From: a virus
Strand: one strand, 5' to 3'
UHGV virus genome: UHGV-0869939
Length of the DNA: 25,864 nt
Positions 5,905 to 17,647 of the stretch are shown one piece after another (within the stretch, counting starts at the first letter, position 1; every line of letters starts with the position of its first letter). Made by a program: the position numbers and the translations under genes. Under the pieces are notes generated by a model. That model made no database searches, was not told the DNA's origin, and was given only the letters and a program-made list of their open reading frames with translations.

Positions 5905-7584
5905 ATGGCGGAAACAACTAAAGAGCGATTGAACAAACAGTTCGCACAACTTGAAAGCGAGCGTCAGTCGTTCGAGCCGCACTGGCGCGAGTTGAGTGAT
6001 TACATCAACCCGCGTGGTTCCCGCTTTCTGACTTCTGAGGTCAACCGTAACGATCGACGCAATACACGCATTATTGATTCGACCGGGACTATGGCGGCGC
6101 GCACTCTCGCCAGCGGCATGATGTCAGGCATCACAAGCCCCGCGCGTCCGTGGTTTCGCCTGGCTACGCCAGATCCTGAAATGATGGATTATGGCCCTGT
6201 TAAGTTGTGGCTTGAGGCGGTGCAGAACCGCATGAACGATATGTTCAATAAGTCGAATCTCTATCAGTCGCTGCCGCAGTTATACGGAAGCCTCGGCACA
6301 TACAGCACTGGTGCAATGGCAGTGCTGGAGGATGACGAGGACATCATTCGCACAATGCCATTCCCGATAGGCAGTTACTACCTGGCTAACTCACCTCGTG
6401 GCAGTGTGGACACCTGTTTTCGCAAGTTCTCTATGACTGTTCGTCAGCTTGTTCAGGAGTTCGGGCTAAATAACGTCAGCGAATCCGTAAAAAGCATGTG
6501 GGAAAGCGGAACCTACGAGAAGTGGATTGAAGTGATGCATTCGGTTTACCCGAACATTGACCGCGATACATCGAAGCTGGATAGCAAGAACAAGCCATTC
6601 AAATCGGTTTATTACGAGGTTGGTGGCGATAACGACAAGTTGTTGCGTGAGTCCGGATTTGATGAGTTTCCAATTATGGCTCCGCGCTGGGAAGTTAATG
6701 GCGAAGATGTTTATGGATCATCATGCCCGGGTATGCTGGCGCTTGGACCTGTTAAGGCATTGCAACTTCTCCAGGAGCGCAAGTCGCAGTTGATTGATAA
6801 AGCCACCAATCCGCCGATGGTTGCTCCGACTTCCCTCAAGAATCAGCGCGCCTCCCTTCTTCCTGGTGACATCACGTATATCGATCAGATTACTGGTCAG
6901 GATGGCTTCAGGCCTGCTTATCTGGTTAACCCCAGTACAGCAGATCTGGTAGCAGACATTCAGGACACTCGTCAAATCATTAACAGCGCCTACTTTGTCG
7001 ATCTGTTCATGATGTTGCAGAACATCAATACCCGCTCGATGCCTGTTGAAGCAGTGATCGAAATGAAAGAAGAAAAACTTCTGATGTTGGGGCCGGTTCT
7101 GGAGCGTCTGAACGACGAATGTCTTAATCCTCTCATTGACCGCGCTTTCTCGATGATGGTGCGTAAAAACATGCTGCCGCCACCGCCTGACGTGATGGAA
7201 GGTATGCCCCTGAAGGTCGAATACATTTCCGTCATGGCTCAGGCGCAGAAGTCTATCGGCCTGTCCAGTCTGGCGTCTACGGTCAACTTCATTGGTCAAC
7301 TTGCGCAAGCGAAACCAGAAGCTCTCGACAAACTCAACGTTGATCAGGCGATCGATGCATTCGCTGATATGTCCGGAGTGTCTCCAACCGTCATTGTTCC
7401 GCAGGAACAGGTTGAGCAGGCTCGCCAGCAACGGGCACAGCAACAACAGCAGCAACAAATGATGGCGATGGGGATGGCGGCGGCACAGGGTGCCAAGACG
7501 CTAAGCGAAGCTAAAACTTCGGATCCGAGTGTTTTGTCAGCTATGGCGAATGCAGTTAGTGGTCAGGGTGGGCAATCACAATGA
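5905..7584 (+). CDS. Portal (head-to-tail connector) protein, T7 gp8-like
   Basis: 559 aa; C-terminal Gln/Ala/Met-rich tail (QQRAQQQQQQQMMAMGMAAAQGA) resembles the T7 gp8 C-terminus; GGAG RBS; followed by scaffold and capsid genes. Confidence 0.85.
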   Translation: MAETTKERLNKQFAQLESERQSFEPHWRELSDYINPRGSRFLTSEVNRNDRRNTRIIDSTGTMAARTLASGMMSGITSPARPWFRLATPDPEMMDYGPVKLWLEAVQNRMNDMFNKSNLYQSLPQLYGSLGTYSTGAMAVLEDDEDIIRTMPFPIGSYYLANSPRGSVDTCFRKFSMTVRQLVQEFGLNNVSESVKSMWESGTYEKWIEVMHSVYPNIDRDTSKLDSKNKPFKSVYYEVGGDNDKLLRESGFDEFPIMAPRWEVNGEDVYGSSCPGMLALGPVKALQLLQERKSQLIDKATNPPMVAPTSLKNQRASLLPGDITYIDQITGQDGFRPAYLVNPSTADLVADIQDTRQIINSAYFVDLFMMLQNINTRSMPVEAVIEMKEEKLLMLGPVLERLNDECLNPLIDRAFSMMVRKNMLPPPPDVMEGMPLKVEYISVMAQAQKSIGLSSLASTVNFIGQLAQAKPEALDKLNVDQAIDAFADMSGVSPTVIVPQEQVEQARQQRAQQQQQQQMMAMGMAAAQGAKTLSEAKTSDPSVLSAMANAVSGQGGQSQ

Positions 7585-13861: not shown

Positions 13862-14325
13862 TGATCGATGTTCGAATTGTTCCCGCTACCGAAGAGCATC
13901 TTCAGATGATTTTGCCGGATGTTCGTCAGGCTGATATTGACGAACTGTATGCGGTATCACTGATGACTACCGAAGATGCGCTGCGTGTTGGTCTGCGTAC
14001 TGCGACTATGGCCTGGTCAGGATTTGCGAACGGAGAACTGGTAACCATGTTTGGCGTATCTCCGGCGTCAATGATCGGTGGCAATGGTACGCCCTGGCTG
14101 GTCGGAACCAGCCGTATCGAAAAATATCAGAAGACATTTCTTCGCCACTGCCGCCCTGTATTGCAGCAGATGCTGGCAGTTTATCCGCGCCTGGAAAACT
14201 ACGTCGACGAGCGAAACCATGTTGCCAAAGCATGGCTGCACTGGCTTGGATTCAGGCTTGAAGAAGCTGCGCCTTATGGTGCTCTTGGTCTTAATTTCCA
14301 CAGATTTCACATGGAGAGAAAATAA
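13861..14325 (+). CDS. Internal virion protein A-like (gp13 position)
   Basis: 154 aa in the gp13 position; KAWLHWLGFRLEE resembles an acetyltransferase-like fold motif; assignment is by position. Confidence 0.4.
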   Translation: MIDVRIVPATEEHLQMILPDVRQADIDELYAVSLMTTEDALRVGLRTATMAWSGFANGELVTMFGVSPASMIGGNGTPWLVGTSRIEKYQKTFLRHCRPVLQQMLAVYPRLENYVDERNHVAKAWLHWLGFRLEEAAPYGALGLNFHRFHMERK

Positions 14326-14900
14326 TGTGCGATCCGGTTATTGCTGGTGGCGCAATGCTCGCCATGAGTGGCATTCAGGCATACACCCAGTACCAACAGG
14401 GAAAGTATGCCTCGAAGGTTGCAGAAGCGAACGCAGATATAGCCACAGCTCAGGCAAATGATGCAATAAACAGAGGTAACGCTGAAGCTGAGCAACGGCG
14501 CAGAGAGACACGACAGCGGCTTGGTACACAGGCGGCGACAATGGGGGCTACCGGCGCTGATTTATCTACAGGTAACGCGCTGGATATATTTGGCGACACT
14601 GCCCAGTTTGGCGCTCTTGATTCTCTGACGACGGTGAATAACGCGCAACGCGAGGCTTACGGTTATCAGGTTCAGGCTGCCAACTATAAAGCAGAAGCCA
14701 GTTCAGCCCGTAAACAGGGGAATGTAGGAGCAGCAACAACATTGCTCACTGCGCCTCTGAAGGCATACGGTGCGTACCAGATGTTTGGTGGGACGTGGAG
14801 TCCGTTCTCTAAAGGAAGTACATCTAGTGGTGGGACGCCAATGTTATCTAACTCAGGTTTTATGAATTCTGACTCCCGATTCAAAATAGGAGGTTACTGA
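14325..14900 (+). CDS. Internal virion protein B-like (gp14 position)
   Basis: 191 aa, Ala/Gln/Gly-rich; GGAGAG RBS; position and size as T7 gp14. Confidence 0.5.
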   Translation: MCDPVIAGGAMLAMSGIQAYTQYQQGKYASKVAEANADIATAQANDAINRGNAEAEQRRRETRQRLGTQAATMGATGADLSTGNALDIFGDTAQFGALDSLTTVNNAQREAYGYQVQAANYKAEASSARKQGNVGAATTLLTAPLKAYGAYQMFGGTWSPFSKGSTSSGGTPMLSNSGFMNSDSRFKIGGY

Positions 14901-17647
14901 TGCCTGTTGTTCCTACTACATCCGGACGCCAGGTGCAAAGTCGTGGTGTGCAAACCGGTGGTTTTCAAACCTTCGATGTTCCTCAAGCAGGTCAGGTGCT
15001 GGCGAATGTCGCAGATCAGTATGCGGTGGCATATGGTGAAGCCAGGCAGAAAGCGAATGTTGCTATGGCCCAGGAGGCGTTACTGCAATTTAACCAATTT
15101 GCAGATGACCAGATTAACAACCCAGAAAATGGGCTGATTTCTAAACAGGGTAAAAACGCTCTTGGTCAGAGTGACGCTGTTATGAAAAATATGCAGGAAA
15201 GGGCTCAGGCATTATTAGGCTCAATTCCTGAAAGTGAGGAAAGGAATAAATTATCCTTTCAACTCCAGCAGTCTATGCAGTCTTATTACAATCAGGCACG
15301 TCGATATGAAGTTGGGCAGTTTCAGCAATTCCAAGATCAAACGTATTTGTCAGGAAATGCATTGGCTGTCACTCAGTCTGCGGGGCTATATAGCGATAAC
15401 CAAGCATTTGTCGATTTAGCCAAGCAGCGATTTGAATCTATTGATCAATACGCTGATGCGCATGGGCTTCCTGATGAGTGGCGTGTTCAGCAGAAAACTC
15501 AGCTCAAGGAACAAATGGGGCAGCAAGCATGGATAGGAAATATCGCTCAAAAATACAACGAGTTTCTTCAGGTTAATGGAGAGCCAGGGGATCTTGACGG
15601 TGTGAGCCGTGCAATGTCACATGGTAATTCATTGGATGCTCGTGGTTTACGTAATAATAATCCTGGTAATATTGAAGCGAGCAAATCTAACCCGTGGGAA
15701 GGTCAGATCGGTAGCGATGGACGTTTTGCAACGTTTGCTACCCCTGAGCATGGAATCCGCGCGTTGGGTAAAAATATGTTGTCTTACCAGCGTCAAGGCT
15801 ATGACACCGTTAGCGAGATTGTTAATCGTTATGCTCCGGCTAGTGATGGTAATAATACTGATGCTTATATTAGGGCATTGTGTGGTGAGCTTGGTGTTGG
15901 GGAGAATGATCAGCTTGATATCTCTAACCCAAAGACACTAGCTGCTTTATGTGCTGGGATTATTAAACACGAAAATGGCAGTATGCCTTATAGCACCGAA
16001 CAGCTTGAAACTGGTATCTCGGCAGCCCTTGGTCTAACTAACCTTGATTCACCTAAGCGTTATACGGGCAATGCGGCATTTGATGCTATGAGCCCTCAAA
16101 TGCAAATACAGGCATTGAGGCAGGCTAATGAGCTGAGAAATCAGTACCGCCAGCAGTATGCGGACCAGCTTAGCACCGTAGTTAAAGATGCATATTCAGC
16201 CCTTGATGAAGGATTGAAACCTGAGCAGTTACCTTCTGAGGACGATTTTATCCGGGCCAATGGTCCGCGCATTGGCGCTATGAAGTGGAAGGATATGCAG
16301 GCGCAGATACAATATGGAGGTGTCATTGGTGCCGCTAAAGACCTCACTCCAGAAGGACGACAAGACATTCTTGAACGTTTACGTCCACAGGATCCAAACG
16401 CTCCTGGATTTGCAGCTAACCAGCAACGCTGGGAGAAAATGCAGGCCAAATTTAAAGAGATGGATAGGGAGTGGGAGATTCAGCAGGGAAGAAACAGGTT
16501 CGTGTCTTCAATGCAAAATAACTTCCCGCTGGACCCGAACGACAAAAACAATCAGGCAGCGGTAGACCGTTATTTCGCGCAGGATATCGCGCCTTCGTTT
16601 TCCATATCTGATCCGCAGAGCATCAATACACTGGTCACCGTCACAACTAAAAGCGGCATGATACCAACTCAGGTTAAAACAATGCTTAACAGTGGAGCAA
16701 CATCAAGAGATCCTGCGCTGGTTGTCCCGATGGCAAAATTCTACGGTCAGTTATTCGATAATAATCCGGCGGCAGCGGCAACACTTGATAAAAGTACGAT
16801 GGCATTTTACGGCAAGGTTTACGATTATTCCCGCGCTGGCGTGCCGGAGGATAAGGCTGTTGATATGGCTTACAGCCAGGTGTTCCAACAGGATGACCGA
16901 ATGAAACAGATGCTTTCCACTGCCATGCGAGACAAAAAATATGTCGCGGCGAGGGCAACTGCTGCACAAAATAACGCCAGCAGTCTGACTTCCTTTGGTT
17001 CGTGGTCTCCGGATATTACCGATCCAGGAAAATCAAATGCGGCCTATCAGCGAGATTACCAGACAATTTACGATGCTAACTTTGTACAGACAGGTGGCGA
17101 TGCAGAACAGGCTGAGAAAATGACCAATGCCATGATCAGAACCACTTGGGGAGTTTCTACGGTTAATGGCAAAGCAGAGGTTATGAAGTATGCACCTGAG
17201 GCATTGTACGGAGTAAATAATGGTGCTGGTAACTGGATACAGGGGCAGTGGGAGCAGGAAAAACGCGAGCTTAAATCAAAATCCTTTGGCGGTCCTCGCA
17301 GTGATACGGACTTAATACTTGTTTCTGATGGCCTTACGGCAAGGGATAGGAGTTATGCTGTTATGGTTTTACAGCCTGACGCAAACGGAGCGATAGAACC
17401 GAGAAATTATATTGGAGAAAATGGTCTCCCTGTTCGTTTCAAGCCGGATCAGCTGACATCTCCAATGTACAGGCAAACCATTCAGTTCCAGCAACAGCGT
17501 GTTGATGAGGCTAGAGTGCGGAGAGAAGGCAATCCGCTGCCGCAGTTCAGCAATAAAGATGGATATACTCCTCCAGATCTGACCAAACCATTCGGTTATG
17601 GTTCAGCCAATTACCTTCCGAGCAATATATACGCAGGGGGCAAATAA
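14900..17647 (+). CDS. Internal virion (core/ejection) protein C-like (gp15 position) with an embedded conserved-looking domain
   Basis: 915 aa; TAGGAGG RBS; contains an AT-rich segment encoding GLRNNNPGNIEAS...WEGQ...GRFATFATPEHGIRALGKNMLSYQRQGYDTVSEIVNRYAP. Confidence 0.55.
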   Translation: MPVVPTTSGRQVQSRGVQTGGFQTFDVPQAGQVLANVADQYAVAYGEARQKANVAMAQEALLQFNQFADDQINNPENGLISKQGKNALGQSDAVMKNMQERAQALLGSIPESEERNKLSFQLQQSMQSYYNQARRYEVGQFQQFQDQTYLSGNALAVTQSAGLYSDNQAFVDLAKQRFESIDQYADAHGLPDEWRVQQKTQLKEQMGQQAWIGNIAQKYNEFLQVNGEPGDLDGVSRAMSHGNSLDARGLRNNNPGNIEASKSNPWEGQIGSDGRFATFATPEHGIRALGKNMLSYQRQGYDTVSEIVNRYAPASDGNNTDAYIRALCGELGVGENDQLDISNPKTLAALCAGIIKHENGSMPYSTEQLETGISAALGLTNLDSPKRYTGNAAFDAMSPQMQIQALRQANELRNQYRQQYADQLSTVVKDAYSALDEGLKPEQLPSEDDFIRANGPRIGAMKWKDMQAQIQYGGVIGAAKDLTPEGRQDILERLRPQDPNAPGFAANQQRWEKMQAKFKEMDREWEIQQGRNRFVSSMQNNFPLDPNDKNNQAAVDRYFAQDIAPSFSISDPQSINTLVTVTTKSGMIPTQVKTMLNSGATSRDPALVVPMAKFYGQLFDNNPAAAATLDKSTMAFYGKVYDYSRAGVPEDKAVDMAYSQVFQQDDRMKQMLSTAMRDKKYVAARATAAQNNASSLTSFGSWSPDITDPGKSNAAYQRDYQTIYDANFVQTGGDAEQAEKMTNAMIRTTWGVSTVNGKAEVMKYAPEALYGVNNGAGNWIQGQWEQEKRELKSKSFGGPRSDTDLILVSDGLTARDRSYAVMVLQPDANGAIEPRNYIGENGLPVRFKPDQLTSPMYRQTIQFQQQRVDEARVRREGNPLPQFSNKDGYTPPDLTKPFGYGSANYLPSNIYAGGK

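What the first reader, a model, noticed from the sequence alone, without database searches (positions are those of the whole stretch)
15600..16000. AT-rich domain with a GLRNNNPGNI motif embedded in the gp15-like internal virion protein
The central part of the 14900..17647 gene is visibly more AT-rich than its flanks and encodes a compact block (GLRNNNPGNIEAS...WEGQ...GRFATFATPEHGIRALGKNMLSYQRQGYDTVSEIVNRYAP). This looks like an acquired domain inside an ejection protein, possibly a cell-wall-active or host-interaction domain delivered with the DNA.
Basis: inference. Interest (0 to 1): 0.4.

Follow-up and report, generated by a model that had tools for sequence, protein, structure and literature searches.

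The report
Cell-wall-cutting domain in phage ejection protein
The GLRNNNPGNI block is a known type of cell-wall-digesting enzyme domain (the type first solved in the phage Enc34 endolysin), sitting inside a T7 gp15-like protein that a short-tailed phage injects ahead of its DNA; this is an ordinary, already understood arrangement.

Summary
The ORF 14900..17647 (915 aa) and the motif (aa 249-258, nt 15644-15673) are real. The block is a discrete ~139-aa domain (aa 247-385, nt 15638-16054), so it runs past the finding's end at 16000.

The AT-richness is weak. GC is 0.444 against 0.468 for the gene, and GC3 is 0.33 against 0.42. It is not significant once scanning is allowed for (P=0.24), and it is absent from the same domain in epsilon15 and Tyrion.

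The domain belongs to the Enc34-endolysin / PHA02564 / "structural protein P5" family:
- PDB 7Q47, E 4e-15
- Kayfunavirus gp16 homologue 9VVP, E 5e-35
- AF2 model with pLDDT 87.5, which matches only 7Q47

The catalytic Glu (E358), Tyr323 and the aromatic residue at 311 are conserved.

The host protein lies between a gp14-like and a gp16-like gene of an epsilon15-like (Uetakevirus-type) temperate podophage. Its model hits T7 gp15 structures. Most scaffold homologues (~700 aa) lack the block. Others carry SLT, GH108 or GH73 domains at the same insertion point, and TL-2011b gp37 carries SLT there.

It is already known in kind. Epsilon15 gp15 is annotated "putative lytic transglycosylase", and reviews describe muralytic domains in gp15 homologues. 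Activity here is inferred, not tested.

The parts
14325..14900 (+). gp14-like internal virion (outer-membrane pore) protein, 191 aa
   Evidence: Pfam PF24072 T7_gp14 at E 4.4e-8, above its cut-off. phrog_418 'internal virion protein' at E 1e-72.
14900..17647 (+). gp15-position ejection protein of 915 aa: a helical scaffold with an inserted muralytic domain
   Evidence: phrog_1044 matches over the full length. The AF2 model has pLDDT 78.7. Foldseek hits T7 gp15 in 7k5c_A, 6yt5_A and 7eyb_A at E 4e-5 to 1e-3 and probability about 1, but TM only 0.2-0.26. The orthologue epsilon15 gp15 matches at 44% identity over aa 1-516.
14900..15604 (+). N-terminal module (aa 1-235): disordered first ~42 aa, then long helical hairpins
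   Evidence: AF2 secondary structure. It matches positions 7-237 of an HMM built from 57 domain-less scaffold homologues. The first ~55 codons are 95% identical in DNA to TL-2011b gp37, after which the two diverge.
15638..16054 (+). Enc34-type (PHA02564 / 'structural protein P5') muralytic domain, aa 247-385
   Evidence: phmmer against the PDB gives 9vvp_L at E 5e-35 and 7q47 at E 4e-15. The AF2 domain model has pLDDT 87.5. Foldseek against the PDB finds only 7q47, at E 9e-10 and TM 0.67-0.74. tblastn finds the domain in 807 phage records. Stand-alone family members end at the equivalent of aa ~385.
15644..15673 (+). GLRNNNPGNI signature motif (aa 249-258)
   Evidence: Position. R-N-N-N-P-G-N is at least 90% conserved in the 57-sequence family alignment. 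N252-N257 are invariant in 41 orthologues.
15830..15832 (+). Tyr311 codon, the aromatic residue equivalent to Enc34 Trp79 (R-Y/W-A-P motif)
   Evidence: Alignment to 7q47. R310, A312 and P313 are invariant, and position 311 is W or Y across the family. Its role is taken from PMC8943055.
15866..15868 (+). Tyr323 codon, equivalent to Enc34 Tyr95
   Evidence: Invariant in alignment A1 and in alignment A2. Aligned to Tyr95 of 7q47.
15971..15973 (+). Glu358 codon, equivalent to the proposed catalytic Glu131 of the Enc34 endolysin (HENG motif)
   Evidence: Invariant in 57 family members and in 41 orthologues. Aligned to the 7q47 'HENGS' motif. The catalytic assignment comes from PMC8943055.
16100..17647 (+). 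C-terminal module (aa 401-915): helical region plus a small beta region, with a disordered tail from aa 877
   Evidence: AF2. phmmer against 1.84 billion representatives finds 948 relatives at E up to 0.001. Window aa 508-876 match scaffold HMM positions 316-675 at E 3e-105.
17647..21036 (+). gp16-like internal virion protein (1129 aa) with no muralytic domain of its own
   Evidence: phrog_342 'internal virion protein with endolysin domain' matches only profile positions 192-1227 to aa 21-1129. No Pfam SLT or other hydrolase domain was found, and there is no PDB sequence hit.

Best explanation
The block is a peptidoglycan-cleaving enzyme domain of the Enc34-endolysin (PHA02564) type. It is inserted between the N-terminal helical module and the C-terminal module of the phage's T7 gp15-like ejection protein.

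Proposed mechanism:
1. The protein is packaged in the capsid.
2. At infection it is expelled through the tail after the gp14-like outer-membrane pore protein, and reaches the periplasm.
3. There the domain cuts glycan strands of the murein locally, using Glu358 as the general acid, with Tyr323 and Tyr311 positioning the sugar.
4. This opens a hole wide enough for the gp15/gp16 trans-periplasmic DNA conduit to assemble.

The domain does the job that the N-terminal SLT domain of gp16 does in T7. In this phage the gp16-like protein has no such domain. Cell lysis at the end of infection is left to a separate holin/endolysin cassette.

Shown here: homology, predicted fold, residue conservation, the insertion architecture and synteny.
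Inferred: virion location, ejection, enzymatic activity, and bond specificity (glucosaminidase, muramidase or lytic transglycosylase).
For: - Sequence homology of aa 247-399 to PDB 9vvp_L (a Kayfunavirus gp16 homologue, with the domain at its N-terminus) at E 5e-35, and to the 7q47 Enc34 endolysin catalytic domain at E 4e-15.
- The AF2 domain model (pLDDT 87.5) matches only 7q47 in the PDB (E 9e-10, TM 0.67-0.74).
- The Enc34 domain lysed outer-membrane-permeabilised E. coli, P. aeruginosa and H. alvei. Glu131, Trp79 and Tyr95 were proposed as key residues (PMC8943055).
- Their equivalents E358 and Y323 are invariant, and Y311 is aromatic, in 57 family members and 41 orthologues.
- The domain is the most conserved module of the protein. 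Against Serratia homologues, identity is ~80% for the domain, 37% for the N module and 65% for the C module. Against the Klebsiella phage, 13% of residues differ while 49% of the unchanged codons carry silent changes.
- Synteny runs tail tubular A/B-like, gp13-like, gp14 (Pfam T7_gp14), this gene, then gp16-like.
- The full-length model hits T7 gp15 structures.
- The gp16-like protein lacks a muralytic domain.
- Scaffold homologues carry SLT (TL-2011b gp37 at aa 263-342; P0245), GH108 (P0317) or GH73 glucosaminidase (P0365) at the same insertion point. Another carries an M23 peptidase at a second point. Different wall-cleaving folds at one position argue that wall cleavage is the selected function.
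- The near-identical phage EC.W1-9 has a separate holin/endolysin/endopeptidase cassette elsewhere in its genome.
- Muralytic domains in gp15 homologues (K1E, K1-5 gp35) and their exchange with gp16 are described in PMC8954989.
Against: - No enzymatic, proteomic or structural data exist for this protein. Activity is inferred from a homologue at 34-35% identity.
- Sequence similarity of the scaffold to T7 gp15 is undetectable. The fold match has a low TM-score (0.2-0.26), as expected for a flexible multi-domain protein but not decisive.
- 91% of representative scaffold homologues manage without any recognisable muralytic domain, so the domain may be dispensable under many conditions. This is the case for the T7 gp16 SLT domain (cited in PMC8954989).
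- The bond cleaved is unknown. The Enc34 authors only argue by structural analogy for glucosaminidase activity.
Confidence: 0.8

Rival explanations
1. The domain is a catalytically inactive remnant that serves only as a structural or peptidoglycan-binding spacer in the periplasmic tunnel.
For: Most scaffold homologues have no such domain. No activity has been measured. Trp79 of Enc34 is Tyr here.
Against: The proposed catalytic Glu and Tyr323 are invariant in all 41 orthologues and all 57 family members. Position 311 is W or Y throughout the family, including stand-alone members. The domain is the most strongly conserved part of the protein. Replacement by other catalytic wall hydrolases at the same site points to catalysis as the selected property.
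Confidence: 0.08
2. The protein is the phage's endolysin for lysis from within at the end of infection, as the PHROG and RefSeq labels 'endolysin' suggest.
For: phrog_1044 and TL-2011b gp37 are labelled 'endolysin'. The same domain family does serve as the true endolysin in Enc34 and Chivirus phages.
Against: The gene sits inside the virion module between the gp14-like and gp16-like genes. The protein is 915 aa with a gp15-like scaffold. The near-identical phage EC.W1-9 has a separate holin-endolysin-endopeptidase cassette about 11 kb downstream. No lysis genes are adjacent.
Confidence: 0.04
3. The block is a recent horizontal acquisition from an AT-richer donor, and the composition dip marks the insertion.
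For: GC3 of the block (0.32-0.33) is the lowest in the gene. Module boundaries coincide with recombination junctions in relatives: P0007 has N 38% / D 97% / C 100% identity, and P0099 has N 67% / D 83% / C 22%.
Against: The dip is not significant after correcting for scanning (P=0.24). It extends upstream to about aa 60, and it is absent from the orthologous domain in epsilon15 and Tyrion. All 120 closest homologues across Escherichia, Klebsiella, Salmonella, Serratia, Proteus and Providencia carry the domain at the same position, so the insertion predates this whole group.
Confidence: 0.05

Closest known systems
Enc34 endolysin catalytic domain (ORF39, PDB 7Q47; CDD family PHA02564; also annotated 'structural protein P5' or 'V virion protein')
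   Same: Same domain family by sequence (E 4e-15) and predicted fold (TM ~0.7). Same RNNNPGN, R-W/Y-A-P, NxTxxY and HENG motifs, including the proposed catalytic Glu.
   Different: In Enc34 the domain is the N-terminus of a 26-kDa lysis-cassette endolysin with a C-terminal transmembrane anchor. Here it is an internal domain of a 915-aa virion ejection protein with no membrane anchor, and it presumably acts from outside at the start of infection.
Kayfunavirus (T7-like coliphage) gp16 homologue 'Gp29', PDB 9VVP chain L
   Same: The closest solved relative of the domain (E 5e-35). It is also part of an internal virion/ejection protein of a podophage.
   Different: There the domain is the N-terminus of the gp16 homologue, where T7 has its SLT domain. 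Here it is in the middle of the gp15-position protein, and the gp16-like protein has none.
Salmonella phage epsilon15 gp15 (AAO06078, 'putative lytic transglycosylase') and other Uetakevirus gp15 orthologues
   Same: Orthologous N module plus the same Enc34-type domain at the same position (motif at aa 249, HENG at 358). Same gene order.
   Different: The C-terminal ~400 aa are not recognisably similar: the match stops at aa ~516. Epsilon15 has three downstream genes (gp16, gp17, gp18) where the window has one 1129-aa gene plus one 283-aa gene. The epsilon15 label 'lytic transglycosylase' rests on a weak HHpred hit to SltB, and Pfam SLT does not match.
T7 gp15/gp16 ejectosome (PDB 7K5C, 6YT5, 7EYB), with the gp16 N-terminal SLT lytic transglycosylase
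   Same: Same gene order (gp14-gp15-gp16). The scaffold model is gp15-like by Foldseek. There is one muralytic domain per ejection-protein set.
   Different: T7 carries a GH23 SLT domain on gp16. Here a different fold (Enc34-type, an all-helical and circularly permuted core according to PMC8943055) sits on the gp15 homologue. There is no detectable sequence similarity to T7 gp15.
Escherichia phage TL-2011b gp37
   Same: Full-length homologue of the same scaffold (29% identity over 886 aligned positions, covering query aa 1-849; first 55 aa nearly identical), with a muralytic domain at the same insertion point.
   Different: Its inserted domain is Pfam SLT (aa 263-342, E 3.6e-7), not Enc34-type. 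This is a clean cassette swap.
gp15-position proteins with muralytic activity in K1E/K1-5 (gp35), SP6 (gp36) and phiKMV (gp36)
   Same: A documented precedent for the wall-degrading function residing on the gp15 homologue rather than on gp16 (PMC8954989).
   Different: These are different phage groups. Their domain types and positions were not compared here. That phiKMV gp36 carries a C-terminal lysozyme domain is from my own knowledge and was not tested.

Membership tests
Enc34-type / PHA02564 muralytic domain family | Significant sequence similarity to characterised members | tested here: met
   phmmer against the PDB gives 7q47 at E 4e-15 and 9vvp_L at E 5e-35. 288 database homologues are mostly 130-200-aa 'structural protein P5'/'virion protein' entries. 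No Pfam or NCBIfam model exists for this family.
Enc34-type / PHA02564 muralytic domain family | All-helical fold resembling the lysozyme alpha-lobe (helices alpha1-alpha6 of 7Q47) | tested here: met
   The AF2 model has pLDDT 87.5 and is mostly helical. Foldseek against the PDB returns 7q47_A/B only, at E ~1e-9, TM 0.67-0.74 and rmsd 2.6-2.9 Å. This is a predicted structure, not an experimental one.
Enc34-type / PHA02564 muralytic domain family | Proposed catalytic Glu131, plus Tyr95 and aromatic residue 79 in the groove | tested here: met
   E358 and Y323 are invariant. Position 311 is Y here and W or Y across the family.
Enc34-type / PHA02564 muralytic domain family | Peptidoglycan-degrading activity | not testable with these tools
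   Measured only for Enc34 ORF39deltaC (PMC8943055).
T7 gp15-like ejection (periplasmic tunnel) protein | Gene position between the gp14-like and gp16-like internal virion protein genes, downstream of the tail tubular genes | tested here: met
   Pfam T7_gp14 on the upstream gene. phrog_342 on the downstream gene. phrog_376 and phrog_394 tail proteins lie further upstream.
T7 gp15-like ejection (periplasmic tunnel) protein | Structural similarity to T7 gp15 | tested here: inconclusive
   Foldseek hits 7k5c_A, 6yt5_A and 7eyb_A with E 4e-5 to 1.2e-3 and probability 0.99-1.00. TM is only 0.17-0.26 and rmsd is above 25 Å over the whole chain. This fits a flexible homologue but is not proof.
T7 gp15-like ejection (periplasmic tunnel) protein | Detectable sequence similarity to T7 gp15 | tested here: not met
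   No T7 gp15 chain appears among PDB sequence hits at E up to 1. No Pfam family matches the scaffold.
T7 gp15-like ejection (periplasmic tunnel) protein | Presence in the virion and ejection into the cell envelope | not testable with these tools
   Epsilon15 gp15 is listed among components of the packaging/injection device in PMC12391199, citing Guichard 2013. There are no data for this phage.
SLT / GH23 lytic transglycosylase (T7 gp16 N-terminal type) | Match to Pfam PF01464 SLT with the E-S ... GLMQ ... AYNxG motifs | tested here: not met
   There is no SLT hit on the window protein at E up to 0.1. The homologue TL-2011b gp37 does match. The 'lytic transglycosylase' label on epsilon15 gp15 should not be transferred as a family assignment.
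Canonical endolysin of a lysis cassette | Encoded next to holin/spanin genes and acting at the end of infection | tested here: not met
   The gene lies in the virion module. In EC.W1-9 the holin/endolysin/endopeptidase genes lie at 32577-33983, outside the window.

The most novel reading that the evidence does not exclude
The gp15-like scaffold family has a fixed insertion slot at about position 238-250 of the ~716-position core. Most members leave it empty. At least four unrelated wall-cleaving folds have been captured there independently: Enc34-type, SLT/GH23, GH108 and GH73 glucosaminidase. An M23 peptidase and several unidentified inserts occupy other sites. The ejection protein would then act as a chassis with interchangeable 'drill bits', exchanged by recombination at domain borders, perhaps matched to host murein chemistry or growth state.
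Probability: 0.5. Interest if true: 0.4.

Novelty: new member of a known kind. Interest (0 to 1): 0.2.

Why it matters
There is practical value for annotation:
- The nearest GenBank records call this protein 'hypothetical'.
- PHROGs and RefSeq call it 'endolysin' or 'head protein'.
- Epsilon15 gp15 is labelled 'lytic transglycosylase' on weak grounds.
- No Pfam or NCBIfam model covers the domain.

A correct description would be 'gp15-like ejection protein with an Enc34-type (PHA02564) peptidoglycan hydrolase domain'.

Biologically it adds one more clear case of the wall-cutting function moving between ejection proteins. It also gives a tidy natural series: the same scaffold with an empty slot, or with an Enc34-type, SLT, GH108 or GH73 domain. 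That series could be used to ask why podophages need a virion-borne muralytic enzyme at all. Virion-associated hydrolases that act from outside on Gram-negative cells are also of some interest as enzybiotic parts. None of this changes current understanding.

Tried and rejected
- Pfam and NCBIfam scans of the whole protein and of the block alone found nothing relevant. The only hit was a sub-threshold GA-like match. The family is simply not modelled there.
- PDB sequence searches with the gp16-like protein found nothing useful.
- A literature search for the PDB code 9VVP found no paper. The chain was identified instead by tblastn as a Kayfunavirus gp16 homologue. 9VVP did not appear in the Foldseek PDB results.
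- The AT-richness argument was tested and rejected as evidence of acquisition.
- Overlapping ORFs inside the block were considered as hidden genes: 15609..15941 on the + strand in another frame, and 16141..16449 on the - strand. The + strand ORF is broken by stop codons in the 81%-identical Klebsiella phage Kp4865-1. The - strand ORF was only translated and has no support. Both are treated as chance ORFs.
- A crude regular expression for SLT motifs found nothing in 150 representatives. It was replaced by proper Pfam scans.
- One MAFFT run timed out, and one Pfam call exceeded the residue limit. Both were redone.
- A search for the Guichard 2013 epsilon15 genetics paper did not find it in the library.
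Full report
**Observation**

The window carries an uninterrupted + strand ORF at 14900..17647 (915 aa). GLRNNNPGNI lies at aa 249-258 (nt 15644-15673), and the rest of the quoted peptide follows it.

The composition claim is only weakly true.
- Block 15600-16000: GC 0.444, GC3 0.33.
- N-terminal module: GC 0.46, GC3 0.40.
- C-terminal module: GC 0.478, GC3 0.457.
- Upstream structural genes: about 0.50.

The dip starts near aa 60, not at the block. The block has the lowest GC3 of any 139-codon stretch in the gene. A permutation test that allows for having scanned the whole gene gives P=0.24. The same domain in epsilon15 gp15 and Tyrion gp16 is not AT-rich relative to its flanks. I therefore accept the block and reject the composition signal as evidence of anything.

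**What the window is**

The window is 99.5% identical to Escherichia phage EC.W1-9 (window coordinate + 3834). This is a 40.6-kb temperate podophage with an integrase and a repressor. Its relatives are classified in or near Uetakevirus: epsilon15, phiV10, Tyrion and Klebsiella phage Kp4865-1.

The structural module reads as follows:
- terminase
- T7-type portal (PF12236)
- epsilon15-type major capsid protein (PF20911)
- tail tubular A-like and B-like proteins
- gp13-like protein
- gp14-like protein (Pfam T7_gp14, E 4e-8)
- the 915-aa protein
- a 1129-aa gp16-like protein (phrog_342)

**What the block is**

Pfam and NCBIfam have no model for the block. A search of PDB sequences gave two hits, both confined to aa 247-399:
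- chain L 'Gp29' of 9VVP, E 5e-35
- the catalytic domain of the phage Enc34 endolysin, 7Q47, E 4e-15

An AlphaFold model of aa 236-410, built on 57 family sequences, has mean pLDDT 87.5. In a Foldseek search of the PDB it matches 7Q47 and nothing else (E 9e-10, TM 0.67-0.74). The block therefore has an independent fold.

Cernooka et al. (PMC8943055) established the following for the Enc34 domain, which is CDD family PHA02564.
- It lyses permeabilised E. coli, P. aeruginosa and H. alvei.
- It is an all-helical relative of the lysozyme alpha-lobe, with a permuted core.
- It has a groove containing the proposed catalytic Glu131, together with Trp79 and Tyr95.

In the HMMER alignment these residues correspond to Glu358, Tyr311 and Tyr323 of the window protein.
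- E358, Y323, R310, A312, P313 and Y296 are invariant in 57 family members.
- E358 and Y323 are also invariant in 41 orthologues.
- Position 311 is W or Y across the family.

Stand-alone family members of 130-200 aa, often named 'structural protein P5' or 'virion protein', end at the equivalent of aa ~385. This sets the domain at aa 247-385, nt 15638-16054.

**Where else the domain occurs**

tblastn finds the domain in 807 phage records. It occurs in several settings:
- as the N-terminus of gp16 ('internal virion protein D') in Kayfunavirus and related T7-like phages. The 9VVP chain is one of these.
- as the endolysin of Chivirus and Enc34-like siphophages
- as 'protein P5' of Mu-like Pseudomonas phages
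- in some microviruses

PHROG profiles containing it include a tape measure protein and a 'tail injection transglycosylase'. It is a widely shuffled muralytic module.

**The host protein**

The full-length AlphaFold model has pLDDT 78.7. It shows:
- a disordered N-terminus of ~42 aa
- long helical hairpins (aa 33-226)
- the globular domain
- a long, mainly helical C-terminal part, with a small beta region near its end and a disordered tail

After 7Q47, its best Foldseek hits are the T7 gp15 chains of 7K5C, 6YT5 and 7EYB (E 4e-5 to 1e-3, probability about 1, TM only 0.2-0.26). Together with the synteny this supports the label 'gp15-like'. Sequence similarity to T7 gp15 is undetectable.

**Is the block an insertion?**

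Among the 120 closest homologues, all prophage proteins of Enterobacterales, every one has the domain at the same place. It is also the best-conserved module:
- Serratia homologues: N 37%, domain ~80%, C 65% identity.
- P0007: N 38%, domain 97%, C 100%.
- P0099: N 67%, domain 83%, C 22%.

Module borders are therefore recombination junctions, but the domain is not a recent arrival.

I then searched 1.84 billion cluster representatives with the C-terminal module alone. Of the 150 best hits, 131 are 400 aa or longer. They divide as follows:
- 8 have the Enc34-type domain (my HMM).
- 4 have another wall hydrolase:
  - SLT in P0245, aa 257-337
  - GH108 in P0317, aa 271-347
  - GH73 glucosaminidase in P0365, aa 239-365
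  - M23 peptidase in P0357, aa 420-515
- 119, mostly 640-760 aa, have no recognisable domain at all.

A profile-profile comparison of the window's family with this set gives probability 100 and E 2e-77 over aa 1-878. The region of about aa 240-400 has no counterpart.

I built an HMM from 57 domain-less members (716 positions). It hits the window protein in two pieces: positions 7-237 to aa 5-217, and positions 316-675 to aa 508-876. The break falls at about the same profile position (~238-250) in the SLT, GH108, GH73 and other Enc34-type proteins. The M23 insert lies at about position 375-382. Three further proteins have unidentified inserts.

Escherichia phage TL-2011b gp37 is the clearest example.
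- It is a full-length homologue of the window protein (29% identity).
- Its first 55 residues are almost identical to the window protein, and the DNA there is 95% identical.
- It carries Pfam SLT at aa 263-342, exactly where the window protein has the Enc34-type domain.

**Division of labour**

The gp16-like protein matches phrog_342 ('internal virion protein with endolysin domain') only from profile position 192 onwards, and it has no Pfam hydrolase domain. The equivalents in TL-2011b and epsilon15 also have none. EC.W1-9 has a separate holin/endolysin/endopeptidase cassette outside the window. The block is therefore the only muralytic domain found in the virion genes scanned, and it is not the lysis enzyme.

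**Mechanism (inferred)**

By analogy with T7 (reviewed in PMC8954989), I propose these steps:
1. The protein is packaged in the head.
2. It is expelled after the gp14-like pore protein.
3. In the periplasm its Enc34-type domain cuts the murein locally, so that the gp15/gp16 conduit can cross.

In T7 the corresponding activity matters mainly when the murein is highly cross-linked. A similar conditional requirement would explain why most scaffold homologues lack a domain. The bond cleaved is unknown. The Enc34 authors favour N-acetylglucosaminidase activity by structural analogy with GH73.

**Rivals**

- A dead, purely structural domain is unlikely, given the invariant active-site residues and the substitution by other catalytic folds.
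- A role as the lysis endolysin is contradicted by gene position and by the separate lysis cassette.
- Recent acquisition from an AT-rich donor is contradicted by the statistics and by the domain's presence across the whole clade.
- The overlapping ORFs inside the block are not genes.

**Comparison with what is known, and novelty**

- The domain family is characterised (Enc34, M4Lys), and a structure of it inside an ejection protein has been deposited (9VVP).
- Epsilon15 gp15, the orthologue, has been annotated 'putative lytic transglycosylase'.
- The review of ejection proteins states that the peptidoglycan-hydrolase domain can move from gp16 to the gp15 homologue, citing K1E and K1-5 gp35.

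The finding is thus a new member of a known kind. Two things are mildly new here:
- the precise family assignment: Enc34-type, not SLT
- the observation that one slot in this scaffold family holds at least four different muralytic folds, or nothing

**Verdict**

The compositional argument is not. The feature is ordinary. Interest 0.2.

Noticed in passing
window 25375..25686 (+) and onward to the window end: A 103-aa ORF matches only the first ~102 residues of many tailspike/tail-fibre PHROGs and then stops. In the near-identical EC.W1-9 an 'eliminase' CDS starts at the equivalent of window ~25625 in another frame. The tailspike therefore appears split into a particle-binding adaptor ORF and an overlapping enzymatic ORF. 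This could be a frameshift, a split gene or an assembly error.
   Followed up: no
window 21038..21889 (+): A 283-aa gene of unknown function (phrog_6118) lies directly after the gp16-like gene. It is far more AT-rich (GC 0.369, GC3 0.28) than the block of the finding. It marks the start of a low-GC accessory region containing anti-repressor-like genes on the minus strand.
   Followed up: partly
window 14920..15063; L002 (TL-2011b) 7001..7144: The first ~55 codons of the 915-aa gene are 95% identical in DNA to TL-2011b gp37, and 89% identical to Tyrion gp16 over nt 1-129. The rest of the proteins falls to ~30-48% amino-acid identity. This is a sharp mosaic junction just inside the gene. It suggests a conserved N-terminal segment, perhaps an interaction with the gp14-like protein or a recombination linker.
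   Followed up: partly
proteins P0308 aa 211-372, P0270 aa 320-447, P0321 aa 649-739, P0323 aa 618-725 (scaffold homologues): These domain-bearing-size homologues have inserts of ~90-160 aa relative to the core scaffold HMM, with no Pfam match. They may be further, unrecognised enzyme or binding domains carried by ejection proteins.
   Followed up: no
literature: PMC8954989 Table 1 versus L004 (epsilon15, AY150271.2): The review lists epsilon15 ejection proteins as gp11 (229 aa), gp12 (499 aa) and gp13 (708 aa). In the GenBank record, gp11, gp12 and gp13 are 201, 825 and 154 aa, and the T7_gp14-position, gp15-position and downstream genes are gp14, gp15, gp16 and gp17. The review's placement of epsilon15 with the P22 group may rest on proteins of another phage.
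   Followed up: partly
homologues P0079, P0080, P0082, P0086, P0088, P0089, P0104, P0109 (Proteus/Morganella prophages): These orthologues have an extra ~100 aa between the N module and the Enc34-type domain: the motif lies at aa ~350 instead of ~252. The nature of the extra segment was not examined.
   Followed up: no
window 17647..21036, aa 530-575 of the gp16-like protein: A Pfam DUF919 (nucleopolyhedrovirus protein) match at E 5e-5 lies just above its cut-off. It is probably a coiled-coil or low-complexity coincidence.
   Followed up: no
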